NCBI GenBank assembly: GCA_023247725.1
Contig: JAHFFW010000009.1
Coordinates: forward strand, 14,424 to 78,423
DNA length: 64,000 bases
DNA from: Candidatus Omnitrophota bacterium
Lineage (GTDB): Bacteria > Omnitrophota > Gorgyraeia > Zapsychrales > JAHFFX01
Direction of reading: 5' to 3'
Shown: piece by piece, positions 149 through 30,114 of the stretch
Numbering within the stretch: the stretch's first letter is position 1
Layout of the letters: the number at the start of each line of letters is the position of its first letter
Notes under the pieces: model-generated
Seen by the model: the letters and a program-made list of their open reading frames with translations, nothing else
Database searches by the model: none
Told to the model about the DNA's origin: nothing
Program-made: the position numbers and the translations under genes

Positions 149-2389
149 TTACTGCGGCCGCTTTTCCAGCGTTTCCAGTTCTTTGAGATACTGATGCGTG
201 TTTCTATAATCGCTCTTTATGTCTTCGACTGCAAGAAATTTTTCTTTGGCCGCGGAATATTTTTTGTCCAAGTACAAGACCATGCCTTCTCGGTACATTT
301 TTTCGACGAGTTTTTCGCGTGGGTCATGGGTGGTCGGTGCGGAATTGGGCTCGGACAGGGACGGGGTTTCTTGTTTACTCTGCGGTGAGGATTGCCCACG
401 AGGCAGGGAAGGCTCACGGTTTGTCTCTGGCATCGGCACGGCTGATTCTTCAGATACAGAAGCGGCCGGCTGGGATTTTTTTTCAGCGGCCTTGAGCGCT
501 TGTTCCAAAGTTTGAGAACGCCCTTCCGATTGTTCGGCTTTTTGTTTGCGCCGGGCTTCCTTTTCGGCCATGGCCTTTTGTTTTTGTTCCGCTTTTTTTG
601 CCAAGGCCTGGCGCTTCCTTTGTTTTTCTTTTAAGCCTTTCTCTTTTTGAGCTTGCCTTTCTCTCTGGATGTTTTCTTGCTGAGACTGTCGTTGTGTTTG
701 AGCTTTTTGCCGTAATTCCTCTTCGTGGGCCTTTTTTCGGGCTTCGGCTTTTTCAGCCTGCGCTTTTTGTTTTGACGCCTCTTTCTCGGCTTTGGCTTTT
801 TGCTCAAGTTCGGCCTTTTCAGCCTGCGCTTTCTTTTGGGTTTCGGTCCTTTCGGCCAAAATATGCTCACGCTCTTCTTCTTTTTGCGCCTGTATCTTTT
901 GCCGATTTTCCTCTTGTTGAGCCAAGGTCTTTTGGCGTATTGCTTCTTTTTCCTTCAAAGCCCGCCGGAGAGCTTCTTCTTTTTCGGCCTTAACCTTCTG
1001 CCGTCGTTCTTCTTCCTGGGCGAGGGTCTTCTGGTGAAGCTGTTCTTTCTCAACCAAGGCCTCTTGTCGAATCTTTTCTTTTTTGGCTAATTCTTTTTTC
1101 CGCTGTTCATCTTTCTGAGTTCGGATCTTTTCCTGTCCGGCCATTTGTATCTGACGCAATTTTTCTTTCTCTTGACGGACCTGTTCGCGTTCTTTTTGTT
1201 GATGAGCCAGGAAGCGCGCGCGTTCTTTTTGCCGAGCGGCTTCTGCCTCTTCTTTAAACCGTTTATCTTCTAGTAATTTTTTCTGGCGTTCTGCTTTTTC
1301 CTTTTGCAAGGCCAGGCGCTGTTGTTCGGCTTCCTTGAGTGCAGGGCGTTTCTCCTTGCGCCTGGCTGTCTCTTCGACAAAAAGATTGGGCTGCTTGGCT
1401 CGAATCAGTCCCAGATAGCGCTGCGTCAATTTGTAATCGGGATCATCGGCGCTGACCTGTGCAAATTTCTGTTTGGCTTCGCTATATTTTTCGTGATTAA
1501 AAAGATAAATGGCATAAGCGTATTTGTCTTCCATTTCGTTGCGAATAATCTTTTTGGGAGGAACATCGAATTTCACCTGATCCAATTCTTTAAAAAGATC
1601 AGGCTGTCCCTCCTTCGGTTGCGAGGCGACCGTCGCGGGAGCAGGCTTATCCAATTCCTTGGCAATCCTCTTTAAGTAATCCTCGGTTTTCTGATAGCCC
1701 GGTTGCAATCGTTCAATATCCTCAAAAAGGGCCTGGGCTTTTTTCCAATCCTTCTCTAAAAAAAGGTCCACGGCCGCAGTGTAAAGCTTTTCTAAACCCG
1801 AAGAATAATTTTCCTGCAAATTTTCCCGTTCAGCGGCCAATTCTTGTTTGCGGGCATTGATATCGGCGAGCACAAGTTCTTCGGCTTCGGGTTTTCCCTC
1901 CTCAACCGCAGAATCTGGTTCTGGAGATGTCACGAAAGTCGGATTATCAACGGCCCGTCCTTCCGGAGGAACATTTTGCCCGGTCGTTTGCTTTTCTTCG
2001 CGAACCTGTTTGAGGAATTCCTGCGTGCGATGGTCTGCTTCGGTGGATACGGACTGGGGGGGCTGTTTTTCTTCACTGAATTTCTGCTCGATCCGGGCGA
2101 GGTATTTCCTGGTGGACTTGTATTCCGGAAGCATTTGGTCGGCCTGCAAAAATTTTTCTTTGGCCTCGGCTAAACGATTGGTTTTATAAAGGCTGACCGC
2201 TTCTTGATAAATAGCCTGAACCTCGCGAACCGTATCTTGATTCTGGCCTTTACCCGAAGCAAGGCTATCGGCCACATAGGACCAACTGAGCGGCGCAATG
2301 AACACACTCATGGTCAGAAAAATAACAGTGCTCATCATCTTCCTAAAACTGCTGCGTCGATGGAAAGGCATAAACGGCTCCGAGATCAT
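149..2389 (-). CDS. Secreted K/E/Q-rich coiled-coil protein with about four TPR-like modules (hypothetical)
   Basis: 746-aa ORF. A signal-peptide-like stretch begins at Met18 (MMSTVIFLTMSVFIAPLSWSYVA). Repeated Y..A..LY....Y.EA...F modules resemble TPR. A long KEK/RQK low-complexity coiled-coil core follows. The start could be 2338. Confidence 0.5.
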   Translation of the reverse strand: MISEPFMPFHRRSSFRKMMSTVIFLTMSVFIAPLSWSYVADSLASGKGQNQDTVREVQAIYQEAVSLYKTNRLAEAKEKFLQADQMLPEYKSTRKYLARIEQKFSEEKQPPQSVSTEADHRTQEFLKQVREEKQTTGQNVPPEGRAVDNPTFVTSPEPDSAVEEGKPEAEELVLADINARKQELAAERENLQENYSSGLEKLYTAAVDLFLEKDWKKAQALFEDIERLQPGYQKTEDYLKRIAKELDKPAPATVASQPKEGQPDLFKELDQVKFDVPPKKIIRNEMEDKYAYAIYLFNHEKYSEAKQKFAQVSADDPDYKLTQRYLGLIRAKQPNLFVEETARRKEKRPALKEAEQQRLALQKEKAERQKKLLEDKRFKEEAEAARQKERARFLAHQQKEREQVRQEKEKLRQIQMAGQEKIRTQKDEQRKKELAKKEKIRQEALVEKEQLHQKTLAQEEERRQKVKAEKEEALRRALKEKEAIRQKTLAQQEENRQKIQAQKEEEREHILAERTETQKKAQAEKAELEQKAKAEKEASKQKAQAEKAEARKKAHEEELRQKAQTQRQSQQENIQRERQAQKEKGLKEKQRKRQALAKKAEQKQKAMAEKEARRKQKAEQSEGRSQTLEQALKAAEKKSQPAASVSEESAVPMPETNREPSLPRGQSSPQSKQETPSLSEPNSAPTTHDPREKLVEKMYREGMVLYLDKKYSAAKEKFLAVEDIKSDYRNTHQYLKELETLEKRPQ

Positions 2390-2491: not shown

Positions 2492-3787
2492 TTAAGGATG
2501 TGTGCCTTTGCGGAAACACGCATTCTGAACGCAAATAGGATTTATATGAAAAAGGTAACGATTTTTCGCAATCCAGGCATACACCCAAGGCCCCATCAGG
2601 CCTGTTCCCGGAAAATAAAAAAGGATGATGCAAGGGTAAAGCATGGGCAACAGCAGGGACAATCGGCGGAAGGCAAAAAATCCGCCCGAAAGCCGGCCGT
2701 CGGGTTCAATCAAATACAGCTGACTCGCAGCCTTCGCATGATTCAAATCGGGATGAAGCAAGGTCAAATCTTCCATCGTATGGAAGTCCCTCATCTGTAA
2801 ACGCCCCCAAAGATCCATGATTTCGAGATGCCGGACACTCAGACGGCAAAAATTGCATTGGCCATCAAAAACGACAATGGAGCGTTTGGCCTGGAGGTTC
2901 AATTTCCTTCTGACTTCGATCCTTTCAAGAATTTTTTCCGGATTAATGAATAACAACATCTGCGGAGGAAACAGGAAAAAGAAAATGGCCGGCACATCTA
3001 ACGTCAGCAACAACATCAAATGAAAAATAAATCCCCAGATGATCCCGGAACGCCGAGTCGCCGGAAAAAACAGCAAAAATGGCAGGAGGAATTCCGTGGA
3101 GAAAATAAAAATTCCCGTCCAGTAGCAGAGGGCTGGATGAACCGCCAGAAAATCCCGCAAAAGAAAGTTTTTGGTCGATCCTTCGTCAGGATAAAGCATC
3201 AAATAATAAAGCGGGTTATCTTTGATCCAATTGCCTTCCGGATAAATTTTGTATAAGGCCGTAAAGAAAAACGTCGCGGCCAGCTGAATCTGCAGTAACC
3301 GCTGGATAAAATAGGGTCGAGGAGCCTTATAGGCATTGGGATCACGCCTTCTTAAGGCATCGACGGAGAAATAATCTCCCGGATAAGGCGTCAGGCACAC
3401 CAGAAAGAGCGTCACCAAAAGCAGATCCCAGGCCAAAGACGAGCCAATATAAAAATCATTGAGGGCATAAAAATAAAGTAAGGATCCAAATAATATCCAG
3501 CCGCTTGGCTGGGTGTAGCACCCGAGCAAAAAAAGCAACCAGCTGCAAAAAAGCACGGCCAACATCAAGATGATCAACCAGTCCGGACTTTGATCCACGA
3601 GATTGAGAAAATCCACCGGGAAAAAATTGGCATTGTACGTTTTAAAAGCCCCGTGGAGATAATGTTCGCGAAAATGAAAAAAGGATGGACAGACATGCAA
3701 AAAGGTTGCGACCGCCACGGCAATCCGAAATAAGGATAGGCTCAGTGTCGGGCGTTCCACTAAAAATAGCCGGTGCCAAAGATTCAT
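2492..3787 (-). CDS. HTTM-domain (vitamin K-dependent gamma-carboxylase-like) membrane protein fused to a C-terminal DCC-family (DUF393) thiol-disulfide oxidoreductase domain
   Basis: The N-terminal half is polytopic membrane protein typical of HTTM. The C-terminus carries VVFDGQCNFCRLSV, which is the FDGxCxxC DCC motif. The start was moved to Met13 (MNLWHRL), which gives an ATGA overlap with the upstream gene. The track ORF extends to 3823. Confidence 0.6.
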   Translation of the reverse strand: MNLWHRLFLVERPTLSLSLFRIAVAVATFLHVCPSFFHFREHYLHGAFKTYNANFFPVDFLNLVDQSPDWLIILMLAVLFCSWLLFLLGCYTQPSGWILFGSLLYFYALNDFYIGSSLAWDLLLVTLFLVCLTPYPGDYFSVDALRRRDPNAYKAPRPYFIQRLLQIQLAATFFFTALYKIYPEGNWIKDNPLYYLMLYPDEGSTKNFLLRDFLAVHPALCYWTGIFIFSTEFLLPFLLFFPATRRSGIIWGFIFHLMLLLTLDVPAIFFFLFPPQMLLFINPEKILERIEVRRKLNLQAKRSIVVFDGQCNFCRLSVRHLEIMDLWGRLQMRDFHTMEDLTLLHPDLNHAKAASQLYLIEPDGRLSGGFFAFRRLSLLLPMLYPCIILFYFPGTGLMGPWVYAWIAKNRYLFHINPICVQNACFRKGTHP

Positions 3788-4416
3788 GGAGTCAGGCTTT
3801 CTTTGGGGAAGATTTGCCGGCAACGAAAAATTCCGGCCTCTTCATAAATATGGGGTTGGCGCGAAAGCGATCGGTATCGCCGCAAGGCAACGACAAAATC
3901 ATCAAATTCTGGAAAGCGCCGATCCATCATTCGGCAAAAACTGGGGGCGGTCTCGCGATCGGCAATGGCGCTCAAGACTCCCCGATGGGTATTATCGTAA
4001 AATAAGGTTCGGTTCTGGATGATCTTGTGGGGATTTAATTCATAGAGCTTCAAATCCTTGACCCCATAAACGACAAAGTGGGCAAAGGTGTCATCCAGGT
4101 GCAGAAACATGATAGGCCCGGCCGGCGGGAAAAGGAATTGATTGACCGGCAAATGCGCCGCGGCCCGGGGGAAATGACGCTGGATGAATGGCCGAAGCAG
4201 CATGAGCCGGGTGTTATTATAAAAATAAACGATCAGCCAGATGAGGACGAAGAGGGTGATGAAGCGGTCACGGACAGCCCGGTTGCGGGCAAGATTGACG
4301 ACAACAATGGGGGGAATGGTGAGGGTATAAACCCAGTAAACTGGCAATTTGAAAATCAAAAAAAACCAGCCGAAGAAAAATATGACCCCACCGACATATC
4401 GGGATATAGCACTCAT
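3784..4416 (-). CDS. Hypothetical membrane protein (about 3 N-terminal TM helices plus a soluble domain)
   Basis: 210-aa ORF translationally coupled on both sides by ATGA overlaps at 4413-4416 and 3784-3787. No recognisable family. Confidence 0.45.
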   Translation of the reverse strand: MSAISRYVGGVIFFFGWFFLIFKLPVYWVYTLTIPPIVVVNLARNRAVRDRFITLFVLIWLIVYFYNNTRLMLLRPFIQRHFPRAAAHLPVNQFLFPPAGPIMFLHLDDTFAHFVVYGVKDLKLYELNPHKIIQNRTLFYDNTHRGVLSAIADRETAPSFCRMMDRRFPEFDDFVVALRRYRSLSRQPHIYEEAGIFRCRQIFPKESLTP

Positions 4417-5894
4417 TGATTTTCATCATGCTCCCCAAAAACTTCGGCGGTAAAAATTTCCATGATCGTATTGGGATCCATCCAGGCCTTCGGGGGCAGA
4501 CCGGCTTTTTGCGCACATAAGACCGATAAAAAAGTGGCCTTGTCCCAGCCGGTTTCGGTTGCCACCTGCGGCAAAAATAATCCCTGATGCATCGAGCCCT
4601 GGCTGACAATCACGCCGTGTTTGCCCAATTCAATTTCATCAATCGAATGAATCCGATGCGGAACCGATAAAACCGAGACCTCCACATCGATATCGCTCAG
4701 TTCTTCCTGCTTTAACGGATCAAACCGGGGATCGCGGGTCGCTGCCGAAACCGCCATATCGCGGACCGTCAGATACAAAGGTTCCCTCCCTATCACTTGA
4801 CCGATGCAGCCGCGCAATTCTCCCTTTTTTCTAATCGTCACAAAGGCACCCTGGGTTTTCAATAAAGCATCCTCTTTGGTCTGGAACTCGGGAATTTTCT
4901 GGGAACGGACAAAGGATTCAATTGTCTCGCGGGCGATTTTCAATAACTCCTTCTTTTGTTCAGGGGTCAAGGCGCCGGCCGCCTTTTGATTATTTTCTGC
5001 GGCCGGCGTCGTGGACGGATGGAATATAACAGAACAATATCCGACGACGCGAAATTTATCTCCGGATGTATCGCCAGAATTGCCATATCGCAAAACTTCT
5101 GCTGTCCAATGTCGCCGTTCGGCTAGCGCAAGGGCGGTCGCGACACCCATAAATCCACACATCTCCATTGTCCCGGAGATGTTTCCATTCCAGAATTCTT
5201 CCACGTCTCCCTTTTCAATGGCCTTGAGTGTGCCGGCATCCATGGCGCGAGCCACCGAATCCGGATGGTAATGCGACATATCGGTGGAAATAACCATCAA
5301 GACATCCTTGCGCTCGCCAATGAGTTTATCGAGGGCCAGCGCCAACTCCTCGATCACCTCAGGATTCGGTTGTCCCATCAGAATCGGAACCAATTTAAAA
5401 TCTTTAAAGGTCTGCTGCAGAAAGGGCAATTCCACCTCGAGGGCATGCTCGCGTTCATAAACCTCCGGCTGAAAATGAAAGTTGGGGCTCTCCGCCAGAA
5501 GCCTTTGGGTGAATTCATCGTCGACTGGAACAATCCCCAGCGGGGTTTTGAATCCCCCCTCTTTCCAGACGGAGATCCCGGAAAACGGGAAAAAGTGGCT
5601 AGGCGCAATGACGATGATGGTGGAATACTGGCCAGCGCTCACCGCGCGAAAACTGTAGGCCGCGACCGGCCCGGAATACGGATAACCCGCATGCGGGGCA
5701 ATGACCATCGGTAAAGGCTGTTCCAAAGGCTTTTGACCGGATTGGTCAAAAAATGTTTGGATTTGCTTCACCAGTTCCTTCGGATTATCGTTGTAAAATT
5801 GGCCACTCACGTTTGGTTCTTTGATGAGCGGTTCAGCGTGCGAATAAGAACATGTCCCCATCATCATGGCCCCAACTAAGCAAAGGATTTTCAT
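4413..5894 (-). CDS. Memo-like (AmmeMemoRadiSam system protein B) - AMMECR1 (protein A) fusion with an N-terminal signal peptide
   Basis: Memo motifs VIAPHAGYPYSG and ISTDMSHY are in the N-terminal half. AMMECR1 motifs GAFVTIRKKGELRGCIGQ, RDPRFDP and GKHGVIVSQG..GLFLPQV are in the C-terminal half. The N-terminus MKILCLVGAMMMGTCSYSHA looks like a cleavable signal peptide. Confidence 0.7.
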   Translation of the reverse strand: MKILCLVGAMMMGTCSYSHAEPLIKEPNVSGQFYNDNPKELVKQIQTFFDQSGQKPLEQPLPMVIAPHAGYPYSGPVAAYSFRAVSAGQYSTIIVIAPSHFFPFSGISVWKEGGFKTPLGIVPVDDEFTQRLLAESPNFHFQPEVYEREHALEVELPFLQQTFKDFKLVPILMGQPNPEVIEELALALDKLIGERKDVLMVISTDMSHYHPDSVARAMDAGTLKAIEKGDVEEFWNGNISGTMEMCGFMGVATALALAERRHWTAEVLRYGNSGDTSGDKFRVVGYCSVIFHPSTTPAAENNQKAAGALTPEQKKELLKIARETIESFVRSQKIPEFQTKEDALLKTQGAFVTIRKKGELRGCIGQVIGREPLYLTVRDMAVSAATRDPRFDPLKQEELSDIDVEVSVLSVPHRIHSIDEIELGKHGVIVSQGSMHQGLFLPQVATETGWDKATFLSVLCAQKAGLPPKAWMDPNTIMEIFTAEVFGEHDENQ

Positions 5895-6334
5895 AAGGGT
5901 TGATTGGTTTTTGAAAAATAACGGTCAAGACTAAAAAAGGCCGTCCGCTCAATGCGAATCCGAAGATAAGCGGTGATTGTCCAGAGAATGATGTCCATGA
6001 GGAATGTCACCGGTAGAGGAAAAGACCAGCGGGAACCAAAACATCCGCACTCTTCTAAAGGCAGGCGGCGAATCAATGCCTGTCCGACGATCAAAAGAAA
6101 ACCCAAAATCATGATCAAGACCCCGCGCAGGGTCCATTCCAGCCACAAACCCAGGATGAGAAACACCCCTAAAATCAGTTCGATCCAAGGCATGACCCGG
6201 GCGGCCGACTCCTCCGCAAATGGCGGCAGGATCTGATAATTTTGAATCACATACAAAAAATTCTGATAAGGGAAAAGCAGTTTTTCCCCGCCGGAAGCGA
6301 CAAATAACAAACCCAGCAGGATTCTTAGGATCAC
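5891..6334 (-). CDS. MauE/DoxX-like 4-TM membrane protein with a CGCFG motif
   Basis: 147-aa hydrophobic ORF. It has the conserved EECGCFG motif seen in the MauE (methylamine utilisation) and DoxX-type thiol-redox membrane protein families. ATGA overlap with the downstream gene. Confidence 0.45.
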   Translation of the reverse strand: MILRILLGLLFVASGGEKLLFPYQNFLYVIQNYQILPPFAEESAARVMPWIELILGVFLILGLWLEWTLRGVLIMILGFLLIVGQALIRRLPLEECGCFGSRWSFPLPVTFLMDIILWTITAYLRIRIERTAFFSLDRYFSKTNQPL

Positions 6335-6996
6335 TAAGGCATTGATGGCAATTCTCCCAGACGCGTTTTCAATTCCGATTCCAATGATTTGATCCCGACA
6401 AACATTTGATCGTTAATAAAATAAGTCGGGGTGGACTGAATCCCTAAGGCCACGCCATTCTCTTTTTCGCGAAGAATCACCGATTTGACCTCATCATTGG
6501 TCAGGCATACCTCTAATTTCAGTTTATCCAGCCCGACGGCGGTGCCGATTTCCTGAAAGATGGGATCGGCATTGATGAGCCCCTTCCAATCATTCTGCCG
6601 GGCAATCAGAAGATCATGAAAAGGCCAGAATTTTCCCTGACGGGCGGCGCATTCTGCGTAACGGGCACAAAGCTGGGCGTGTTGATGCCCGTCCAATGGG
6701 AAATATTTCATTTGCAGATAAAGTTTTTTGGGGTAGGCCGCGTAATATTGATTGAGCATGGCGACCCCGCGGGCGCAGGCAGGGCATTGAAAATCGATGT
6801 ACTCGACGATTTTGACCGGGGCATTGGGATCGCCTTTGGTGCGCATCCGACTGACATCTTTGGGTCCTTGGCTTAAATATCCTTTTAAAAGATTGATGAT
6901 GACGATGAGGAGAATGCATAAAATAACGATCAAAACAGTGGTATTTTGTTTCTTTTGAATCGCATTCTTGGCTGGTGGGTTGGAAGCCTTCGGCAT
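6334..6996 (-). CDS. DsbA-like thioredoxin-fold thiol:disulfide oxidoreductase, membrane-anchored
   Basis: N-terminal TM anchor (TTVLIVILCILLIVIINLL). CPAC active site in YIDFQCPACARG. DsbA-like length of 220 aa. First gene of the coupled operon. Confidence 0.65.
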   Translation of the reverse strand: MPKASNPPAKNAIQKKQNTTVLIVILCILLIVIINLLKGYLSQGPKDVSRMRTKGDPNAPVKIVEYIDFQCPACARGVAMLNQYYAAYPKKLYLQMKYFPLDGHQHAQLCARYAECAARQGKFWPFHDLLIARQNDWKGLINADPIFQEIGTAVGLDKLKLEVCLTNDEVKSVILREKENGVALGIQSTPTYFINDQMFVGIKSLESELKTRLGELPSMP

Positions 6997-7039: not shown

Positions 7040-7110
7040 TTTTTAAGCGATTCTTGCTGATCGTGGAAGGCATTCTAGCACAAAAGAAAGGGGGAGTAAA
7101 ACGATTGATC
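7040..7110 (-). promoter_or_regulatory. Putative sigma70-type promoter of the dsbA-like operon
   Basis: On the minus strand there is a TTTACT, a 17-nt spacer, TGcTAGAAT (-10 at about 7077-7072), and about 70 nt of 5' UTR before the ATG at 6996. Confidence 0.25.
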
Positions 7111-7138: not shown

Positions 7139-7176
7139 GCGCCCCGCCCCACAGAAATTTTGCGGGGCGGGGCGCT
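7139..7176 (-). terminator. GC-rich hairpin, probable terminator downstream of the small Met-rich ORF
   Basis: Perfect inverted repeat agcgccccgcccc / ggggcggggcgct with a 12-nt loop. It lies about 35 nt after the stop at 7211. The flanking U-tract is only modest. Confidence 0.4.
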
Positions 7177-7210: not shown

Positions 7211-7387
7211 TTAGCGACGATACATATTCATCTTCATCATGGTGTTACCCATCATGCCGCCTTCTTCATTCATCATATTGCCCATTTCTTCATTATTCAT
7301 GTCCCAATCCATATGGGAGGCATGCGAGATGCCTAAGAAACAAAATCCAATAAGCACGGCTGCCGCTAGCGTTAATCCATATTTCAT
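7211..7387 (-). CDS. Unannotated small secreted Met/Asn/Glu-rich peptide (58 aa)
   Basis: Hand translation gives MKYGLTLAAAVLIGFCFLGISHASHMDWDMNNEEMGNMMNEEGGMMGNTMMKMNMYRR*. AGGAGA lies 7 nt upstream of the ATG. A signal peptide and probable ...SHA cleavage site are present. The mature part has 11 Met in about 35 residues. A His-rich plus-strand ORF in the track is its antisense shadow. Confidence 0.5.
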   Translation of the reverse strand: MKYGLTLAAAVLIGFCFLGISHASHMDWDMNNEEMGNMMNEEGGMMGNTMMKMNMYRR

Positions 7388-24569: not shown

Positions 24570-25868
24570 TCAGGTTCGTGGTGGAAAAGGCCGTACGATC
24601 AAGCGAATTCCCTTATCATAACTCAAATAACTAAAAACCCAATTCACAAAGGTCACGACCCGGTTGCGAAATCCCACCAGTGTCATCAAATGAACAAACA
24701 CCCAAATAAACCAGCCCAGGATTCCTTGAAATTTCACAAAAGGCAAATCCACGACGGCCTGATTGCGCCCAACGGTGGCCATGACCCCCAAATAGTGAAA
24801 ATGAAAAGGGTTCAAGGATTCGTTATTCAACAAATGCTGGAGATTGCGAGCGAGGTTAGTTCCCTGCTGGATAGCCACCGGGGCTAACATGGGAAATCCG
24901 TGGGGATGGTCTTTGGTTTGCATGGCGGCCACATCGCCGATGGCAAAAATATCTTCATATCCTTGCACCCGACTGTATTCGTCGACGTGAATCCGGTTAT
25001 TCTTGTCCAAAACCTCGGGATTTAAACCCGCGATAGCGGCTCCCATGACTCCCGCCGCCCAAATCACCGAGCGGGTGGGAATTTGTTTGCCACCATCCAG
25101 GGTGAGGGTGAATCCGTCATAAAGAGCGACCTTGGTGTTGAGCCAGATATTGACATCAAACTTCTGTAAAAAATTCATGGCGCCTTTGGATGCCTCTTGC
25201 GACATGGTCGGCAATAAACGCTGGGCCGCATCGATGATATGGATCTGCATCTTGTCGAGATCCAATTCCGGATAATCCGCAGGAAGGATATGATTTTTTA
25301 ATTCCCCCAAGGCTCCGGCCATCTCCACGCCGGTTGGCCCCCCTCCGACGACCACAAAAGTCATGAGACTTTGGCGCTCTTTAAGATCCGTCGCCAGGAT
25401 CGCCGCCTCAAAATTTTGCAGCATCAGGCTGCGCAAATCCAACGCCTCCGTCAACGATTTCATTGACATCGCGTATTTCTTTACATCCTCCATTCCCAGA
25501 TAATTAGTTTTCGAGCCCATGGCCAAGACCAAATAATCATAAGGAATCTTGCCGATGGAGGTTTCCACGGTCTTTTGCGCAGGATCAATTTTGATCACCT
25601 CGGCCATGCGAAAAAACAGATTTTTTTGATGCTTGAAGATTTTGCGCAAAGGAAACGCAATCGAATCAGGCTCTAATCCAGCGGTCGCGACCTGGTACAA
25701 CAAGGGTTGAAAGGTATGGTAATTATTCTTATCAATCAAAACGATCTGCAGTTCGGCCTGCTTGAGCGATTTGATGAGGTGCATGCCGGCGAAACCTCCG
25801 CCGATGACAACCAGGCGGGGTTTATTCGTGGTGGGGATGTTAACGGATAAGGATAATGGAATCATCAT
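24570..25868 (-). CDS. ndh: Type II NADH:quinone oxidoreductase (NDH-2)
   Basis: RLVVIGGGFAG Rossmann motif, QPLLYQVA, and a second GGGPTGVE dinucleotide motif. The start was moved to Met25 (MMIPLS) to remove the overlap with TerC. Confidence 0.75.
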   Translation of the reverse strand: MMIPLSLSVNIPTTNKPRLVVIGGGFAGMHLIKSLKQAELQIVLIDKNNYHTFQPLLYQVATAGLEPDSIAFPLRKIFKHQKNLFFRMAEVIKIDPAQKTVETSIGKIPYDYLVLAMGSKTNYLGMEDVKKYAMSMKSLTEALDLRSLMLQNFEAAILATDLKERQSLMTFVVVGGGPTGVEMAGALGELKNHILPADYPELDLDKMQIHIIDAAQRLLPTMSQEASKGAMNFLQKFDVNIWLNTKVALYDGFTLTLDGGKQIPTRSVIWAAGVMGAAIAGLNPEVLDKNNRIHVDEYSRVQGYEDIFAIGDVAAMQTKDHPHGFPMLAPVAIQQGTNLARNLQHLLNNESLNPFHFHYLGVMATVGRNQAVVDLPFVKFQGILGWFIWVFVHLMTLVGFRNRVVTFVNWVFSYLSYDKGIRLIVRPFPPRT

Positions 25869-25893
25869 TTTGAAAACTGAATTTTTTCGATTT

Positions 25894-26826
25894 TCAATCT
25901 TGGGAAGCTTTTTTAAGCGGAAACCAAAAAGAGGCCGCAATGGATAAGGCCAGGATCGCTGACACGGTTATCAAGGTAACAACGGCGGGAACGTGAACGA
26001 CCCGATCCAACAGCATCTTGCCACCAATCAAAACTAAGATCAAAGACAAACCATAATTGAGATAATGAAATTTATCCATGATCGCCGCCAAGACGAAATA
26101 CAGCGCCCGCAGTCCCAAAATGGCAAAGCAGTTGGAACTGTAAACAATGAAGGGATCGCGCGTGACCGCGAGGATGGCCGGTATCGAATCCACGGCGAAG
26201 ACCACATCCACCACATCGAGGACAAAAAGCGCAACAAATAAAGGCGTCACCCACCAATGGCCATGCCGGAACACAAAATACCGTCCGCCCTCGTAATCGG
26301 CGCTGATGGGAACAAACTTGCGGAACAATTTGAGAACTGGATTTCGCTCTGGTTCAAACTGCTTCTCTTTTTCAAGCAACATTTTGATGCCGGTCACCAA
26401 TAAAAATAAGCCGAAAACATAGATCATCCAGTGGAATTTGGCGATAAGGGCGATCCCCATGACAATGAACAGCCCGCGGACTAAAAAGGCCCCAAAAATT
26501 CCCCAGAAAAGGACGCTGTGCTGCTGTTCGGCCGGCACTTTGAAATAATTGATGACCAAAAGAAAGACAAACAAATTGTCCATGCTCAAAGAACGTTCGA
26601 TGAGATACCCGGTAAAAAAATTGAAGGCCCTCTCCGGTCCGCTGAAGACATAAATTCCCGCATTGAAAACCAGGGCCACGACCGTCCAAATGACACTCCA
26701 GATGATTGATTCCTTTAAGCCAATCTTGTGCGCCTTGCGGTTGAATACGCATAAATCCAGATACAGCATGACCAGGATGGATGCGATAAAGATGCCCCAC
26801 AAAAACGCCGGGCTTATGGGATTCAT
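25894..26826 (-). CDS. TerC-family integral membrane protein
   Basis: 310 aa. Has the SLSMDNLFVFLLV and DSIPAI TerC signatures. Confidence 0.75.
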   Translation of the reverse strand: MNPISPAFLWGIFIASILVMLYLDLCVFNRKAHKIGLKESIIWSVIWTVVALVFNAGIYVFSGPERAFNFFTGYLIERSLSMDNLFVFLLVINYFKVPAEQQHSVLFWGIFGAFLVRGLFIVMGIALIAKFHWMIYVFGLFLLVTGIKMLLEKEKQFEPERNPVLKLFRKFVPISADYEGGRYFVFRHGHWWVTPLFVALFVLDVVDVVFAVDSIPAILAVTRDPFIVYSSNCFAILGLRALYFVLAAIMDKFHYLNYGLSLILVLIGGKMLLDRVVHVPAVVTLITVSAILALSIAASFWFPLKKASQD

Positions 26827-26950
26827 TTTGCTCCATGGCGTGAAGCGTCGTTCGGCAAGAGTGAAGCATCAACACGAAATACGCTTCACGAGCGACGAAC
26901 GAAAAAAGTCATGATTAAAATCTATAGTCTTTCACTGTGACAATAGCCCG
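26827..26950 (-). promoter_or_regulatory. TerC 5' leader with three mutually exclusive complementary repeats (candidate riboswitch/attenuator)
   Basis: On the mRNA strand: CGUGAAGCGU ... GAUGCUUCAC ... ACGCUUCACG, then GGAG and the ATG. Copy 1 can pair with either copy 2 or copy 3. Confidence 0.3.
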
Positions 26951-27550
26951 CTAGCGCTTATTAATCGACTCTCCCTCAATGATCCCACCGGAGATGACGA
27001 CTTTTAACGCCTCCTCGACACTCCAGCCCGTATCACGGACTAATTTTTCCTCAACCAAAATAATAAATCCCGACATGGGAGAAGGGGTTGTGGGGATGAG
27101 GACCTTGAGCCACTTCTTATTGAGAGTATGATCAACGGTCTCGCCGGTGATGAATCCAATAAGCCAAATATCATTTTTAAAGCACTCAATCATCACCACT
27201 TTTTTGAAAGGCTGACGGTCTTGCACGGAAAATGTTTCGGAAAGCTGTTTCCCAACCTGGTAGGTTGTTTTGACCAACGGAATAATTTTGGCGATATTTT
27301 CTAAGAGGTTAAAGAATTGCCGCCCGATATAGTTGCTGGCCAAAAAGCCAATGAGGCACAAAACGACCAGAACCAGCAGAAGACCCAAGCCCGGAATGCG
27401 GTAGCCGATATATTCACTCAAAAAATCTGCGATGCGTTTATCAATATAGACGTAGATAAACCGCACGGCAAAAAAGGAAAGGGCCAAGGGAATAATGGCC
27501 AAAAGACCGCGGAAGATGTAGGTCCGAAGGATGTTAAAAAATTCTTTCAT
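26951..27550 (-). CDS. DUF502-family membrane protein
   Basis: 199 aa. Two N-terminal TM helices and a conserved ..PTTPSPMSGFIILV.. segment. Confidence 0.5.
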   Translation of the reverse strand: MKEFFNILRTYIFRGLLAIIPLALSFFAVRFIYVYIDKRIADFLSEYIGYRIPGLGLLLVLVVLCLIGFLASNYIGRQFFNLLENIAKIIPLVKTTYQVGKQLSETFSVQDRQPFKKVVMIECFKNDIWLIGFITGETVDHTLNKKWLKVLIPTTPSPMSGFIILVEEKLVRDTGWSVEEALKVVISGGIIEGESINKR

Positions 27551-27639
27551 GGGATTGTCCTTTTCGCAGATTTTTTAAGGTCGCTATGTGGGATTAGGAT
27601 ATCATTAAATGCCCTATCGCGGAAGAAACTTTGAAAGAG

Positions 27640-27680
27640 AAAAAGCGAGGGCCGCCCCGCCAAAGGCGAGGCGGCCCGTC
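27640..27680 (-). terminator. Rho-independent terminator after yceI-like gene
   Basis: Stem gggccgcc / ggcggccc. On the minus strand it is followed by CGCUUUUUCUCU. Confidence 0.4.
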
Positions 27681-27710
27681 CCTTTTCGCCGTCGCTTAAT
27701 ATTTCGAAAA

Positions 27711-28313
27711 CTATTTTTTATCCGCCTCAATACTGACTTGGATTAAAACCACGTCGTCAACAAGCAAACCTCCATTGTCCATCTGTTTATTAAAAGAGAC
27801 TCCAAAATCCTGACGATTGATGGCCCCATCAGCTTCAATCCCAATGACGGTTCCCCCCATCGGGCTCTTCACCGGGCCCGAAACCTGACCAAAAAGAGTC
27901 GTGGTCTTCGTCACATTCTTGATCGTTAAATCACCGGTCATTGCAATGCCATCGCCCTGTTTGACAAATTTAACGTTCTTAAAAGTGATCTCGGGGAATT
28001 TTTCGACCTCCAAAAAATCCGCACTTTTTAAGTGTTCATCCCTTTTTTCGTTGCGCGTGTTGATACTGGGGGTTTTCACAACAATATCCGCCGTGGATGC
28101 CTTTAAATCATCCGGGTCATACGTGATCGTTCCCTGGTAATCGGTGAATTCCCCTTTGGTGGTACTCACCATCATGTGTTTGACCGCAAAACCAATCCTT
28201 GAATGCACCGCATCAATCTGATAGGTTTCGGCACAAAACGCCAGCGGGCTACCTAAGACAAAAGATCCCGCCAATACGAACAACGCCCAAAATCCTTTAA
28301 GCTGTTTCTGCAT
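27711..28313 (-). CDS. YceI-family periplasmic polyisoprenoid-binding protein
   Basis: Signal peptide. YQIDAVHSRIGFAVKHMMVSTTKGEF and the C-terminal block are YceI-like. AAGGAGG RBS. Confidence 0.75.
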   Translation of the reverse strand: MQKQLKGFWALFVLAGSFVLGSPLAFCAETYQIDAVHSRIGFAVKHMMVSTTKGEFTDYQGTITYDPDDLKASTADIVVKTPSINTRNEKRDEHLKSADFLEVEKFPEITFKNVKFVKQGDGIAMTGDLTIKNVTKTTTLFGQVSGPVKSPMGGTVIGIEADGAINRQDFGVSFNKQMDNGGLLVDDVVLIQVSIEADKK

Positions 28314-28329
28314 CAGTTCCTCCTTTTGG

Positions 28330-28494
28330 TTATGATTTTACAAAAACTCTGATGACCCAAACAATCCCCACCATGATGACCAATGATAGACCCATGATCT
28401 TCGTCCAAAGGAAAATCCGTCCCGATGTCGCCGAAAATTCCGGACCACTCCCGACGATTGAATTGAATCTTCCCGGAAAAGAACTGGCGCCCAT
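28330..28494 (-). CDS. Unannotated 54-aa small protein with a C-terminal TM helix, upstream of yceI
   Basis: MGASSFPGRFNSIVGSGPEFSATSGRIFLWTKIMGLSLVIMVGIVWVIRVFVKS*. GGAGG lies 6 nt upstream of the ATG. The stop is 16 nt before the yceI ATG, and that gap is yceI's own SD (AAGGAGG). Confidence 0.4.
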   Translation of the reverse strand: MGASSFPGRFNSIVGSGPEFSATSGRIFLWTKIMGLSLVIMVGIVWVIRVFVKS

Positions 28495-28554
28495 AGAATT
28501 CCTCCAATTGATGCGGCAGCCCCGATCCTCTAAAACGAAAATTGATTCATTCTC

Positions 28555-30114
28555 TTACTTCAATAAAGCAAAGAGGATCAAACCATAAGCAAAATACAAA
28601 AGGAAAACTCCTCTTTCGTTTGCGCCACTCCGGGCAATGTAGCAAAAATTCAAACCCGCGAACAAAAAGGCAAACCAGGTCAAGGCCAGATGAGCATAAT
28701 GCGGGACAAGAAAAACCGCCGTCAGAACATAGCCTAAGGCCACGAGGCCGCCAATCAGATTCCTGGCATCTTTTTCTCCCAGAAGCACCGGCAAGGTGAC
28801 AACTCCGGTCGCAGCATCTCCCTCGATGTCTTTAAGATCTTTGATGCTTTCCCCCAGACAGATAATGATAAAAATAAGCAAGGCCACGGTAGCGTTAATC
28901 GTCAAAACCGATCCTGGAGGCGAGAAGGCCACCTGCCCCAGAACAAAGACTAACATGGCTTCCAGACCCAGAATGAGCATGGAAGAAAACAAATTTTTCT
29001 TGAGCCGCAAGGGCGGCGCGGAATAAATAAAGGCCAAGGCGACCAAAAAGACAATCACCATAAAACATGCGTCCGAGACCCAAAGAGCAAAGGCTAAGGC
29101 CAAAGCCAAGAATATAGATCCGATCAAAAAATATTCTTGCCTTTCCATCGCCGCGGACACCAGCGGTCGACGGGTATTCGTCATTTTATCGCCGGCCACA
29201 TCAAACAGATCATTGACCACGACCGCATGTTGGAAGGCAAAAAAAATGGCGGTGAGCATCGCGCCTATTTTAAAAAGAATAAAAAGATCCTGAAAGCTTA
29301 CCGCCGGAACCGCGAGCCTTAAACCCAACAGCGCCATGAGCACGTAATGGACCGAGCGCTCCCAGCGCAAATTCCCGACGATCGCGCGAAACTTATGCGA
29401 ATCGTATCGCCAATACCACATGGCGCAAAGCCCAGTCAGGCTAAAAAGCTGGGTGATCACAATGACCGATTCATCCATCGTCGCTCCCACGGGCCCTTTG
29501 AGGAAGAGCTTCAATACTGGATAAACCAGGCCATTAAAGGCATTGATGATGAATGCAGGCAGGGCTCCGTAAGCAAAGATGAGGAGAAAGATACACAAGG
29601 CCCCTAATACCGCGCGAACCAAACGACCGGTTTTCACGACGATATAAATGAAAGAAAGAATGGTAATGATGGCGACTTCCAACCGCTGACTGATCGGAAT
29701 ATCGGGGGCGGAATAAAACGGATTAAAAAAATTTAAAAATTTTACCCCCGGATTTTCAAAGACATAATTGTAATTGGTCGGTGTTCCGCGCAACGCTGGG
29801 ATCAAATCCACCAGAATCGGCACGAGGATGACCAGAAAGCCAATGAGGCAGGTTCGCGACAGCGCCGCCACTCCGGTCGCAGAGAAGAAATGCAAAATCA
29901 GGATCACTCCCAAAAGGACCGACAGAAAAAGAACGGGGACATGCACAAGATCAAAGGCCGTGATATCCGGAAACTTTCCGTAATCAATGAGGCTTTCGAG
30001 GCTATTGCGGATAAAAATAATCGAAAGAGCCGTGGCCATCCAAAGGCCGAAACCAATGGGCAGTTTTTCGGTGGACAGAATGAATGTGGCAAACTTTTGG
30101 TGCATAGGGCTCAC
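28555..30114 (-). CDS. UbiA-family prenyltransferase with about 250-aa N-terminal membrane extension
   Basis: The C-terminal half has the UbiA Asp-rich motif (NDLFDVAGDKMTNTRRPL). The N-terminal half is an extra polytopic domain. Confidence 0.6.
   Translation of the reverse strand: MSPMHQKFATFILSTEKLPIGFGLWMATALSIIFIRNSLESLIDYGKFPDITAFDLVHVPVLFLSVLLGVILILHFFSATGVAALSRTCLIGFLVILVPILVDLIPALRGTPTNYNYVFENPGVKFLNFFNPFYSAPDIPISQRLEVAIITILSFIYIVVKTGRLVRAVLGALCIFLLIFAYGALPAFIINAFNGLVYPVLKLFLKGPVGATMDESVIVITQLFSLTGLCAMWYWRYDSHKFRAIVGNLRWERSVHYVLMALLGLRLAVPAVSFQDLFILFKIGAMLTAIFFAFQHAVVVNDLFDVAGDKMTNTRRPLVSAAMERQEYFLIGSIFLALALAFALWVSDACFMVIVFLVALAFIYSAPPLRLKKNLFSSMLILGLEAMLVFVLGQVAFSPPGSVLTINATVALLIFIIICLGESIKDLKDIEGDAATGVVTLPVLLGEKDARNLIGGLVALGYVLTAVFLVPHYAHLALTWFAFLFAGLNFCYIARSGANERGVFLLYFAYGLILFALLK

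What the first reader, a model, noticed from the sequence alone, without database searches (positions are those of the whole stretch)
2492..6996. Translationally coupled envelope operon combining DsbA-like, MauE/DoxX-like (CGC), secreted Memo-AMMECR1, and HTTM(carboxylase-like)-DCC proteins
Five minus-strand genes are joined by ATGA or 1-nt overlaps at 6334, 5891-5894, 4413-4416 and 3784-3787, so they are almost certainly one operon. Every product is membrane-bound or carries a signal peptide. The mix combines disulfide machinery (a CPAC thioredoxin-fold protein, a CGCFG membrane protein and the DCC FDGxCxxC domain) with an HTTM domain. HTTM is the bacterial homologue of the vitamin K-dependent gamma-glutamyl carboxylase. 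The cluster also contains an apparently exported Memo-AMMECR1 fusion. In animals the carboxylase works with a thiol-dependent quinone reductase (VKOR). A carboxylase-like enzyme plus thiol-redox membrane proteins here echoes that logic. I know of no described system linking the AmmeMemo proteins to an oxidative-folding or HTTM module.
Basis: partly seen in the sequence, partly recalled or inferred. Interest (0 to 1): 0.85.

Follow-up and report, generated by a model that had tools for sequence, protein, structure and literature searches.

The report
Carboxylase-like membrane enzyme with exported Memo-AMMECR1
A five-gene envelope operon, conserved across the uncultured phylum Omnitrophota, places a relative of the vitamin K-dependent carboxylase next to exported Memo and AMMECR1 domains, where other bacteria have a radical SAM enzyme; this gives a new clue to two protein families whose biochemistry is unknown.

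Summary
Five minus-strand genes (6996-2492) are joined by a TAGTG junction and three ATGA junctions, and every domain call was confirmed: DsbA-like (CPAC), MauE (CGCF), Memo+AMMECR1 fusion, and HTTM+DCC.

The fourth gene (210 aa) belongs to no Pfam family. It is the near-invariant partner of HTTM-DCC, present in 77 of 78 related loci.

The HTTM-DCC model matches human gamma-carboxylase structures (Foldseek E about 1e-6). The catalytic lysine is kept (K180 = K218). The Glu/CO2-site residues N159/H160 do not align.

Exported Memo-AMMECR1 lies next to gene4+HTTM-DCC in 66 of 73 informative loci, in different arrangements across two deep clades. DsbA-MauE is present only in one clade. A 2026 preprint shows that MauE can replace DsbB, so this pair is a known kind of disulfide-forming system.

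A reciprocal scan from Memo-AMMECR1 shows that other lineages pair similar, mostly signal-bearing fusions with the AmmeMemoRadiSam radical SAM enzyme. None of the 90 HTTM loci fetched (about 83 distinct), nor the window, has that enzyme.

Best reading: a split, quinol-dependent, periplasm-facing carboxylase-like enzyme takes the radical SAM partner's place. The substrate and the chemistry are unknown. I rate it a new variant of known kinds, interest about 0.7.

The parts
7072..7100 (-). Promoter-like site (TTTACT-17-TAGAAT, with TG) upstream of the first gene
   Evidence: It lies downstream of a strong hairpin at 7176-7139. This is a consensus match only.
6334..6996 (-). DsbA-like thioredoxin-fold protein, N-terminal signal anchor, active site CPAC (C71/C74)
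   Evidence: Pfam Thioredoxin_4 1.8e-22 and DSBA 1.6e-14. TM segment 15-44. Present in 48 of 48 fully visible clade-1 loci and 0 of 13 clade-2 loci.
5891..6334 (-). MauE/DoxX-family membrane protein, 4 TM segments, CGCF motif (C96/C98) in the loop between TM3 and TM4; probable DsbB-like oxidant of the DsbA-like protein
   Evidence: Pfam MauE 2.1e-21 and DoxX 2.5e-8. TM pattern. Preprint 10.64898/2026.03.05.709764 reports that MauE complements dsbB and that the CXC motif is needed.
4413..5894 (-). Exported Memo + AMMECR1 fusion (AmmeMemoRadiSam proteins B and A in one chain), signal peptide about residues 1-20, active-site motifs intact (PHAG, PSH, DMSH, MCG; LRGCIG)
   Evidence: Pfam and NCBIfam full-length matches. 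Signal-like N-terminus conserved in the orthologues that could be read. When the genes are split, AMMECR1 has its own signal-like N-terminus. Invariant columns.
3784..4416 (-). Gene 4: membrane-anchored protein of a family with no Pfam or NCBIfam model. TM helices followed by a small alpha/beta domain predicted to face the periplasm, with the invariant motif LFPPxG(W)IMF, H130, D141, R145 and two invariant Cys (C161, C199). Near-invariant upstream partner of HTTM-DCC.
   Evidence: No family hit. 1100 homologues with a profile, none with a Pfam domain. Only 47 clusters in an exhaustive search of 1.84 billion representatives. AF2 model with pLDDT 80.6. Present in 77 of 78 loci.
2492..3787 (-). 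HTTM (vitamin K-dependent carboxylase-like, about 8 TM) fused to a C-terminal DCC1-like CxxC domain predicted to face the cytoplasm. Invariant K180 and W187 (= GGCX K218 and W223), and C311/C314.
   Evidence: Pfam. AF2 pLDDT 87.5, pTM 0.85. Foldseek top 15 PDB hits are all human GGCX, E 8e-7 to 7e-4. hhalign to GGCX 47-324. Invariant columns.
149..2389 (-). Possible sixth gene: exported TPR protein rich in E, K and Q (746 aa; 14.7% Glu). No terminator-like site separates it from HTTM-DCC.
   Evidence: A homologous TPR protein follows HTTM-DCC in 16 related loci, usually followed by a 118-126 aa secreted protein, a DsbH-like thioredoxin and AsmA. Its membership in the system is uncertain.

Best explanation
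This is a conserved envelope module of Candidatus Omnitrophota and of some MAGs labelled Elusimicrobia.

**Core.** The core is a two-gene, split relative of the vitamin K-dependent gamma-carboxylase (GGCX).
- HTTM-DCC supplies the quinol-binding transmembrane catalytic domain. Its conserved base, K180, faces the periplasm.
- A CxxC (DCC) domain sits on the cytoplasmic face. I infer that it feeds electrons to re-reduce the quinone or quinone epoxide.
- Gene 4 supplies one further transmembrane helix and a small periplasmic domain. In GGCX the equivalent position is taken by TM9 plus the lumenal substrate-clamp domain.

**Partner.** The enzyme works together with an exported Memo-AMMECR1 protein. 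It occupies the genomic place that the PflA-like AmmeMemoRadiSam radical SAM enzyme holds next to Memo-AMMECR1 in other bacteria. I therefore infer that it performs the C-H-activating or maturation step by quinol/O2 chemistry instead of SAM radical chemistry. Its target would be either a periplasmic substrate shared with Memo-AMMECR1 or Memo-AMMECR1 itself.

**Added pair.** In the window's clade the operon also carries DsbA-like plus MauE, a DsbB-type pair that makes disulfides and passes the electrons to membrane quinone. This pair can oxidise the exported components, for example the two invariant Cys of gene 4. As a by-product it yields the quinol that an HTTM enzyme consumes.

**Shown:**
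- gene structure, domain identities and the GGCX fold
- conservation of K180 and the CxxC motif
- conserved adjacency
- absence of a radical SAM gene nearby

**Inferred:**
- topology of the DCC domain
- physical complex between gene 4 and HTTM
- use of quinol and O2
- functional replacement of the radical SAM enzyme
- nature of the substrate
For: **Domains and fold.**
- Domains confirmed.
- The predicted fold matches GGCX: Foldseek E 8e-7, TM-score about 0.5 over about 300 columns, and the top 15 hits are all GGCX.
- hhalign pairs K180 with K218 and W187 with W223.
- K180, G185-N186-W187, D308-G309, C311 and C314 are invariant in 58 homologues.

**Gene 4 as partner.**
- Gene 4 lies immediately upstream of HTTM-DCC in 77 of 78 loci.
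- Its start overlaps or nearly abuts the neighbouring genes.
- Its most conserved motif (residues 95-104) is the least confident part of the monomer model, as expected for an interface.
- A 2026 preprint predicts with AlphaFold 3 that an analogous pair forms a GGCX-like complex. That pair is a TM-anchored DUF5819 protein plus an HTTM-DCC1 protein.

**Link to Memo-AMMECR1.**
- Exported Memo-AMMECR1 is adjacent in 66 of 73 informative loci.
- The arrangement differs between clades: co-directional in clade 1, convergent or divergent in clade 2, and the flanking genes differ.
- Signal-like N-termini are conserved, also on AMMECR1 when the genes are split.

**Radical SAM swap.**
- In the reciprocal scan, 32 of 80 Memo-AMMECR1 loci carry a TIGR04337-type radical SAM gene (9 of 10 tested pass the curated cut-off). 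Only the 4 Omnitrophota-type loci carry HTTM and gene 4, and no locus has both.
- There are no TIGR04337-like hits in the 90 HTTM loci fetched or in the 64-kb window.

**Quinone context.**
- MauE as a DsbB replacement with a CXC active site.
- The window encodes an NDH-2-type quinone reductase and a YceI protein, so a membrane quinone pool is plausible.
Against: - No activity, complex or substrate has been shown.
- GGCX residues N159/H160, needed to bind Glu and hold CO2, fall in an alignment gap (their role is described in PMC12647623). Carboxylation in particular is therefore doubtful.
- Gene 4 shows no detectable similarity to the GGCX lumenal domain, to DUF5819 or to SdpA by sequence or fold.
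- GGCX chemistry needs O2, and many Omnitrophota are thought to be anaerobes. The window shows no oxidase.
- Only neighbourhoods of up to 10 kb per side were examined. A radical SAM partner may be encoded elsewhere in these genomes.
- Seven loci have gene4+HTTM-DCC without Memo-AMMECR1 nearby.
- Within clade 1 a long stretch is syntenic (PEPCK ... AsmA), so part of the conservation may be inertia.
Confidence: 0.5

Rival explanations
1. Juxtaposed but functionally separate units. DsbA-MauE is the cell's general disulfide-forming pair. Memo-AMMECR1 and gene4+HTTM-DCC each do something unrelated, and the shared order reflects inherited synteny in a slowly rearranging genome region.
For: - DsbA-MauE is absent from all 13 clade-2 loci.
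- MauE is described as a generalist DsbB replacement.
- Clade-1 loci share a long syntenic block that includes PEPCK, a TPR protein, a DsbH-like thioredoxin and AsmA.
- Seven loci lack Memo-AMMECR1.
Against: - Memo-AMMECR1 stays adjacent to gene4+HTTM-DCC in two deep clades whose HTTM-DCC proteins are only 45-50% identical to the window's. The orientations differ and the flanks are unrelated.
- Start and stop codons overlap in the window and in several relatives.
- HTTM-type and radical-SAM-type neighbourhoods are mutually exclusive.
Confidence: 0.2
2. The target is a membrane isoprenoid or quinone, not a protein. HTTM-DCC, gene 4 and Memo-AMMECR1 would together modify or recycle a prenylquinone or another polyprenyl lipid at the outer face of the inner membrane.
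For: - The HTTM fold binds vitamin K within the membrane.
- Memo-AMMECR1 is exported, while in some lineages its radical SAM partner has no signal sequence (L110, L111, L113). That is easiest to explain if the substrate is a lipid reachable from both faces.
- From my own recollection, which I could not verify here, Burroughs et al. 2019 (JBC 294:10211) linked Memo contexts to aliphatic isoprenoid modification.
- YceI, UbiA-family and NDH-2 genes lie in the window.
Against: - No prenyltransferase or quinone-biosynthesis gene is part of the conserved neighbourhood.
- The characterised HTTM enzymes I know of act on peptidyl substrates. GGCX and MloH are mentioned; SdpB is from my own knowledge and was not checked here.
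- The UbiA-family gene is 25 kb away and is not specifically MenA.
Confidence: 0.2
3. An SdpA/SdpB-like maturation system for a secreted peptide toxin or RiPP. In this reading the small Met-rich exported peptide upstream (7211-7387) is the precursor.
For: - The layout of a small protein followed by an HTTM membrane protein resembles sdpA-sdpB (own knowledge).
- A 58-aa exported peptide gene lies just upstream.
Against: - The peptide gene is followed by a strong hairpin and is absent upstream of DsbA in all other clade-1 loci. It also has no tblastn match in related loci.
- Gene 4 does not hit the SdpA family, even at E<=10.
- There is no immunity, transporter or protease gene.
- The module is a conserved, phylum-wide feature and not an accessory island.
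Confidence: 0.05

Closest known systems
[quoted passage not shown]
   Same: Same HTTM transmembrane fold. The catalytic base K218 and W223 are conserved. The active face is predicted to point away from the cytoplasm, and a further TM helix plus an extracytoplasmic domain is supplied, here in trans by gene 4.
   Different: - The enzyme is split into two genes.
- The lumenal domain is replaced by an unrelated small domain.
- N159/H160 are not alignable.
- A C-terminal DCC CxxC domain is added.
- No propeptide-bearing Gla substrate is known.
DUF5819 protein + HTTM-DCC1 protein pair (Melghirimyces; AlphaFold 3 prediction in bioRxiv 10.64898/2026.08.19.745780) and the fused bacterial carboxylase MloH of malonomycin biosynthesis
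   Same: Adjacent genes for a TM-anchored small protein and an HTTM-DCC1 membrane protein. The pair is predicted to rebuild a GGCX-like architecture.
   Different: Gene 4 is not a DUF5819 member (no hit at E<=10). Its family is restricted to 47 clusters. The Omnitrophota module adds exported Memo-AMMECR1 and, in one clade, DsbA-MauE. There is no natural-product cluster around it.
AmmeMemoRadiSam system (TIGR04335 AMMECR1-like protein A, TIGR04336 Memo-like protein B, TIGR04337 radical SAM enzyme)
   Same: Proteins A and B are present, full length and with intact motifs, here fused. Related fusions with signal peptides sit next to TIGR04337 in other lineages.
   Different: No TIGR04337 gene lies within 64 kb here or within 10 kb in 90 related loci. 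Gene4+HTTM-DCC occupies the neighbouring position instead.
DsbA-DsbB / VKOR / MauE disulfide-forming pathways
   Same: A DsbA-like CxxC protein followed by MauE with a CGC loop and the conserved Phe, as in the MauE proteins shown to replace DsbB.
   Different: The pair is translationally coupled to the HTTM module in one clade only. Whether it serves the whole envelope or this module alone is unknown.

Membership tests
HTTM / vitamin K-dependent carboxylase family (PF05090) | Profile match above the curated threshold | tested here: met
   40.3 bits against a cut-off of 27.7, residues 16-283.
HTTM / vitamin K-dependent carboxylase family (PF05090) | GGCX transmembrane fold | tested here: met
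   AF2 model with pLDDT 87.5. The top 15 Foldseek PDB hits are all GGCX, E 8e-7 to 7e-4.
HTTM / vitamin K-dependent carboxylase family (PF05090) | Catalytic base Lys218 (deprotonates vitamin K hydroquinone) | tested here: met
   K180 aligns with K218 and is invariant in 58 homologues.
HTTM / vitamin K-dependent carboxylase family (PF05090) | Glu-binding / CO2-site residues N159 and H160, needed for carboxylation | tested here: not met
   This segment of GGCX falls in a 7-residue gap of the hhalign alignment. The alignment has modest confidence (probability 52%).
HTTM / vitamin K-dependent carboxylase family (PF05090) | Fused lumenal substrate-clamp domain | tested here: not met
   The chain ends in a DCC domain. 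Gene 4 shows no similarity to the GGCX lumenal part.
HTTM / vitamin K-dependent carboxylase family (PF05090) | Quinol- and O2-dependent epoxidase/carboxylase activity | not testable with these tools
   Needs biochemistry.
DCC1-like thiol-disulfide oxidoreductase (PF04134) | Profile match and the D-G-x-C-x-x-C motif | tested here: met
   63.6 bits against a cut-off of 27.8. D308, G309, C311 and C314 are invariant.
DUF5819 + HTTM-DCC1 GGCX-like pair | The partner protein belongs to DUF5819 | tested here: not met
   No DUF5819 hit for any of 10 gene 4 homologues at E<=10. No distant relatives in the exhaustive search.
DUF5819 + HTTM-DCC1 GGCX-like pair | A TM-anchored small protein encoded next to HTTM-DCC | tested here: met
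   77 of 78 loci. TM helices followed by a globular domain.
DUF5819 + HTTM-DCC1 GGCX-like pair | Predicted physical complex | not tested
AmmeMemoRadiSam system | Protein A (AMMECR1-like, TIGR04335) and protein B (Memo-like, TIGR04336) | tested here: met
   176 bits (cut-off 99) and 283.5 bits (cut-off 26), both full length.
AmmeMemoRadiSam system | Associated radical SAM enzyme (TIGR04337) | tested here: not met
   No CxxxCxxC ORF in the window. No tblastn hit in the window or in 90 related loci. The rest of the genome was not seen.
DsbA + MauE disulfide-forming pathway | MauE profile match, four TM segments, CXC (CGC) followed by Phe in the loop between TM3 and TM4 | tested here: met
   with motifs read. 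Criteria taken from the preprint.
DsbA + MauE disulfide-forming pathway | Ability to replace DsbB / oxidise DsbA | not testable with these tools
   Needs complementation of E. coli dsbB.
SdpA/SdpB peptide maturation | SdpA-family partner and an adjacent precursor peptide | tested here: not met
   No SdpA hit. No conserved upstream peptide.

The most novel reading that the evidence does not exclude
The gene4 + HTTM-DCC pair is a quinol/O2-dependent functional replacement of the radical SAM 'activase' of AmmeMemoRadiSam systems. The parallel is O2-dependent FGE against the radical SAM enzyme anSME in sulfatase maturation (own knowledge). In this reading the pair matures the exported Memo-AMMECR1 protein itself, or activates its substrate, at the periplasmic face. 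MauE/DsbA and the cytoplasmic DCC domain would close a bacterial vitamin-K-like redox cycle. This would be the first physiological partner for a bacterial GGCX homologue, and it would give a biochemical handle on Memo and AMMECR1.
Probability: 0.3. Interest if true: 0.85.

Novelty: new variant of a known kind. Interest (0 to 1): 0.7.

Why it matters
**Open questions it touches.**
- Memo (MEMO1) and AMMECR1 are conserved from archaea to humans and are linked to human disease. Neither has a known reaction.
- Bacterial homologues of the vitamin K-dependent carboxylase have almost no known partners or substrates.

**What the module shows.** It ties the two problems together.
- The same exported Memo-AMMECR1 unit is found either with a PflA-like radical SAM enzyme or with a GGCX-like quinol enzyme.
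- Both enzyme classes are specialised in activating inert C-H bonds.
- This narrows what Memo-AMMECR1 may do.
- It also suggests the system works outside the cytoplasm.

**What can be tested.** The five proteins form a compact set that can be expressed in E. coli. It also adds a new partner family for HTTM enzymes that no current domain library covers, and a natural case of a MauE-DsbA pair coupled to a quinol-consuming enzyme.

Tried and rejected
1. **Gene 4 as a homologue of the GGCX TM9 plus lumenal domain.** I saw a by-eye resemblance of motifs (SWDMM against GWIMF; CLSRLLP against CRFLxRRFP). It failed every test, so I rejected it as homology and kept it only as a positional analogy:
   - hhalign probability 0.7%
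   - Foldseek against PDB found nothing below E=0.03
2. **Gene 4 as DUF5819 or SdpA.** No Pfam hit at E<=10 for 10 members.
3. **Sequence search of HTTM-DCC against PDB.** It did not reach GGCX. A weak hit to arabinosyltransferase EmbB (E 1.8e-4) is probably TM composition. The link to GGCX needed hhalign and fold comparison.
4. **RiPP or toxin precursor.** The upstream Met-rich peptide is not conserved.
5. **Radical SAM partner in the window or in related loci.** None found.
6. **afdb50 fold library.** It was not available, so bacterial DUF5819 models could not be compared.
7. **Burroughs et al. 2019 (JBC).** The paper could not be read. What I say about it rests on my own memory.
8. **Conserved extra partner in clade-2 loci.** The flanks differ from locus to locus.

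Full report
**1. What is in the sequence**

Five ORFs lie head to tail on the minus strand between 6996 and 2492.
- Reading the reverse strand confirms the junctions.
  - The TAG stop of the first gene shares G6334 with the GTG start of the second.
  - The next three junctions are ATGA overlaps at 5891-5894, 4413-4416 and 3784-3787.
- The last gene most likely starts at the ATG at 3787, not at the upstream TTG at 3823.
- An independent gene call on another assembly of the same sequence gives the same five products of 220, 147, 493, 210 and 431 aa.
- Upstream there is a promoter-like site at 7100-7072.
- Before that lies a separate 58-aa ORF (7211-7387), closed by a 16-bp GC hairpin of -39 kcal/mol. 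The operon therefore very probably begins at about 7100.
- Downstream, no terminator-like site separates the HTTM-DCC stop from the next gene (149-2389). That gene may belong to the same transcript.

**2. Domain identities**

| Gene (minus strand) | Assignment | Evidence |
|---|---|---|
| 6334-6996 | DsbA-like, active site CPAC | Thioredoxin_4 1.8e-22, DSBA 1.6e-14 |
| 5891-6334 | MauE, motif CGCF | MauE 2.1e-21, DoxX 2.5e-8 |
| 4413-5894 | Memo + AMMECR1 fusion | Memo 6e-62, AMMECR1 3e-54; TIGR04336 1.4e-84 and TIGR04335 4.4e-52, both full length |
| 3784-4416 | gene 4, no family | no hit in Pfam or NCBIfam |
| 2492-3787 | HTTM + DCC1-like | HTTM 3.7e-10 (above the curated cut-off), DCC1-like 5e-17 |

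- A simple hydropathy scan agrees that every product is membrane-bound or has an N-terminal signal-like segment.
- The Memo motifs (PHAG, PSH, DMSH, MCG) and the AMMECR1 motif LRGCIG are intact. They are invariant among orthologues.

**3. The HTTM-DCC protein**

- It has more than 540 homologues at 50-65% identity, almost all from Candidatus Omnitrophota MAGs.
- An AlphaFold2 model built on 58 homologues is confident (pLDDT 87.5, pTM 0.85).
- Its 15 best matches among solved structures are all human GGCX, with E from 8e-7 to 7e-4 and TM-score about 0.5 over about 300 columns.
- Profile alignment places residues 8-295 on GGCX 47-324. K180 falls on the catalytic base K218 and W187 on W223. Both are invariant, as are D308, G309, C311 and C314 of the DCC motif.
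- The GGCX residues N159/H160 bind the substrate glutamate and help hold CO2 (PMC12647623). They fall in a gap of this alignment.
- Quinol activation is therefore plausible, while carboxylation is not established.
- The HTTM part ends where GGCX enters its cytoplasmic loop, and the following segment is rich in Lys and Arg. I infer, at about 70% confidence, that the DCC domain faces the cytoplasm. That is the opposite side from DsbA and the MauE loop.

**4. Gene 4**

- A first search found only 7 relatives. The roughly 150-aa proteins upstream of HTTM-DCC in other Omnitrophota then proved to be homologous.
- A profile search found 1100 members, none with a Pfam domain.
- An exhaustive HMMER search of 1.84 billion representatives found only 47 clusters and no distant relatives.
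- The model (pLDDT 80.6) shows membrane helices followed by a small alpha/beta domain. There are three helices in the window's version and one in the short versions.
- Invariant positions include the motif LFPPxGxIMF, H130, D141, R145 and two cysteines, C161 and C199.
- No similarity was detected to the GGCX lumenal domain, to DUF5819 or to SdpA.
- Its position does match a recent AlphaFold 3 prediction. There, a TM-anchored DUF5819 protein and an adjacent HTTM-DCC1 protein of a Firmicute rebuild a GGCX-like architecture (bioRxiv 10.64898/2026.08.19.745780).

**5. Conservation**

I fetched 80 genome loci through HTTM-DCC and 8 through gene-level look-ups. I surveyed them with tblastn and placed them on a neighbour-joining tree of HTTM-DCC. 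After removing duplicate contigs, 83 loci were classified.

| Arrangement | Description | Loci |
|---|---|---|
| A (clade 1) | DsbA-MauE-Memo-AMMECR1-gene4-HTTM-DCC, same strand | 48 fully visible, plus 5 cut off upstream |
| B (clade 2) | gene4-HTTM-DCC with Memo-AMMECR1 adjacent on the opposite strand; no DsbA or MauE | 13 |
| C (scattered in both clades) | gene4-HTTM-DCC alone | 7 |
| too short to judge | | 10 |

- Gene 4 is present in 77 of 78 loci with enough upstream sequence.
- Memo-AMMECR1 is therefore adjacent in 66 of 73 informative loci. This holds through a change of orientation and with unrelated flanks.
- That is the main argument for a functional link between Memo-AMMECR1 and the HTTM pair.
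- Within clade 1 a longer block is syntenic: a 66-72 aa membrane protein, PEPCK, the operon, a TPR protein, a 118-126 aa secreted protein, a DsbH-like thioredoxin and AsmA. Conservation of order inside that clade is therefore weaker evidence.

**6. Export of Memo-AMMECR1**

- In every orthologue that could be read, a hydrophobic signal-like segment precedes the conserved start of the Memo domain, IKEPNVSGQFY.
- Where the two domains are separate genes (L048), or only AMMECR1 is seen (L025), the AMMECR1 ORF has its own signal-like N-terminus.

**7. The reciprocal test**

I scanned metagenome contigs from the Memo-AMMECR1 side (80 loci).
- Only the four closest loci (at least 50% identity) carry HTTM-DCC, gene 4, DsbA or MauE.
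- The others (30-45% identity) are also Memo-AMMECR1 fusions, most of them with signal- or lipoprotein-like N-termini.
- Of the 80 loci, 32 have a nearby TIGR04337-like radical SAM gene. Nine of ten tested pass the curated NCBIfam cut-off.
- Many of those radical SAM proteins themselves begin with a twin-arginine motif (RRxFLK) or a hydrophobic segment.
- No TIGR04337-like sequence is found in the 90 HTTM loci or in the window.
- The exported fusion is thus not peculiar to this operon. What is peculiar is the partner: a GGCX-like enzyme where other lineages have a PflA-like radical SAM enzyme.

**8. DsbA-MauE**

- A March 2026 preprint shows that MauE proteins from two phyla complement an E. 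coli dsbB mutant.
- It also shows that the CXC motif in the periplasmic loop between TM3 and TM4 is required, and that ubiquinone docks as in DsbB (10.64898/2026.03.05.709764).
- The window's MauE has these features.
- This pair is therefore a known kind of disulfide-forming system. It may serve the whole envelope.
- Its coupling to the HTTM module in clade 1 is suggestive, because it reduces quinone and an HTTM enzyme would consume quinol. It is not part of the conserved core.

**9. Interpretation**

The best-supported model has three parts.
- A split, periplasm-facing, quinol-dependent GGCX-like enzyme (gene 4 + HTTM-DCC) works with exported Memo-AMMECR1.
- It stands in the place of the radical SAM partner.
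- Redox supply comes from the cytoplasmic DCC domain and, in clade 1, from DsbA-MauE.

The substrate is unknown. Candidates are Memo-AMMECR1 itself, the Glu-rich TPR protein encoded downstream (14.7% Glu), or a membrane isoprenoid or quinone. I found no literature describing this association.

**10. Verdict**

- The module is a new variant assembled from known kinds. It includes one protein family that has no model in Pfam or NCBIfam.
- The main uncertainties:
  - whether the proteins form a complex
  - the chemistry, including whether O2 is required
  - the substrate
  - whether a radical SAM partner is encoded elsewhere in these genomes

Noticed in passing
window 7211-7387 (-), hairpin 7139-7176: A 58-aa ORF with a good RBS encodes a signal peptide followed by a Met-rich tail (SHMDWDMNNEEMGNMMNEEGGMMGNTMMKMNMYRR). 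A -39 kcal/mol GC hairpin follows it. The tail resembles Met-rich Cu(I)-binding motifs (own knowledge). The ORF is also called in another assembly but is absent upstream of DsbA in all other related loci.
   Followed up: partly
L094-L165 (e.g. L118:4312-5442, L102:3557-4660, L158:4881-5960, L164:3549-4790): Many AmmeMemoRadiSam radical SAM enzymes (TIGR04337, above cut-off) next to signal-bearing Memo-AMMECR1 fusions begin with twin-arginine motifs (MTLNRRTFLRM..., MNRRSFLKL..., MISRRVFLF...) or hydrophobic N-termini. This suggests that whole AmmeMemoRadiSam systems may be exported or membrane-anchored, which is unexpected for a SAM-dependent enzyme. I found no literature on this.
   Followed up: partly
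window 149-2389 (-): Exported 746-aa protein with TPR repeats at both ends and a long central stretch rich in E, K and Q (E 14.7%, K 13.3%, Q 10.5%, no Cys). A homologous TPR protein follows HTTM-DCC in 16 related loci. It could be a substrate or a partner; this was not tested.
   Followed up: partly
window 24570-30114 (-): A group of quinone- or isoprenoid-related genes: NDH-2-type NADH:quinone oxidoreductase (24570-25940), TerC, DUF502, a YceI-like polyisoprenoid-binding protein (27711-28313), and a 519-aa UbiA-family prenyltransferase with a long N-terminal extension (28555-30114). The last is not specifically MenA.
   Followed up: partly
L008:6168-9768: In a locus without Memo-AMMECR1, gene4+HTTM-DCC is flanked by a glutaredoxin and an aldo-keto reductase upstream and a DoxX protein downstream. 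These may be alternative redox partners.
   Followed up: no
L077:11202-14345 (-): The Memo-AMMECR1 reading frame is continuous with an upstream segment of about 540 aa resembling carbon-starvation protein CstA (my own recognition of the N-terminal sequence; no family search was run), giving a 1047-aa ORF. It may be a real fusion, a read-through or an assembly artefact.
   Followed up: no
window 2492-3787 (-), residues 178-263: A single-sequence search against PDB gave a weak match (E 1.8e-4) to the membrane domain of mycobacterial arabinosyltransferase EmbB (7bvf_B). It disappeared when the family profile was used, so it is probably transmembrane composition.
   Followed up: partly
window 1-64000: Nearly all ORFs of at least 150 aa that do not overlap a longer ORF lie on the minus strand, and the cumulative GC skew falls steadily across the window. 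This fits a single replichore with strong gene-strand bias.
   Followed up: no
L001:16238-16594, L006:10740-11120 and relatives: A conserved 118-126 aa secreted protein of unknown function, followed by a DsbH-like thioredoxin (PF03190), lies downstream of the TPR gene in 16-17 related loci. In the source contig it lies just beyond the window's start.
   Followed up: no
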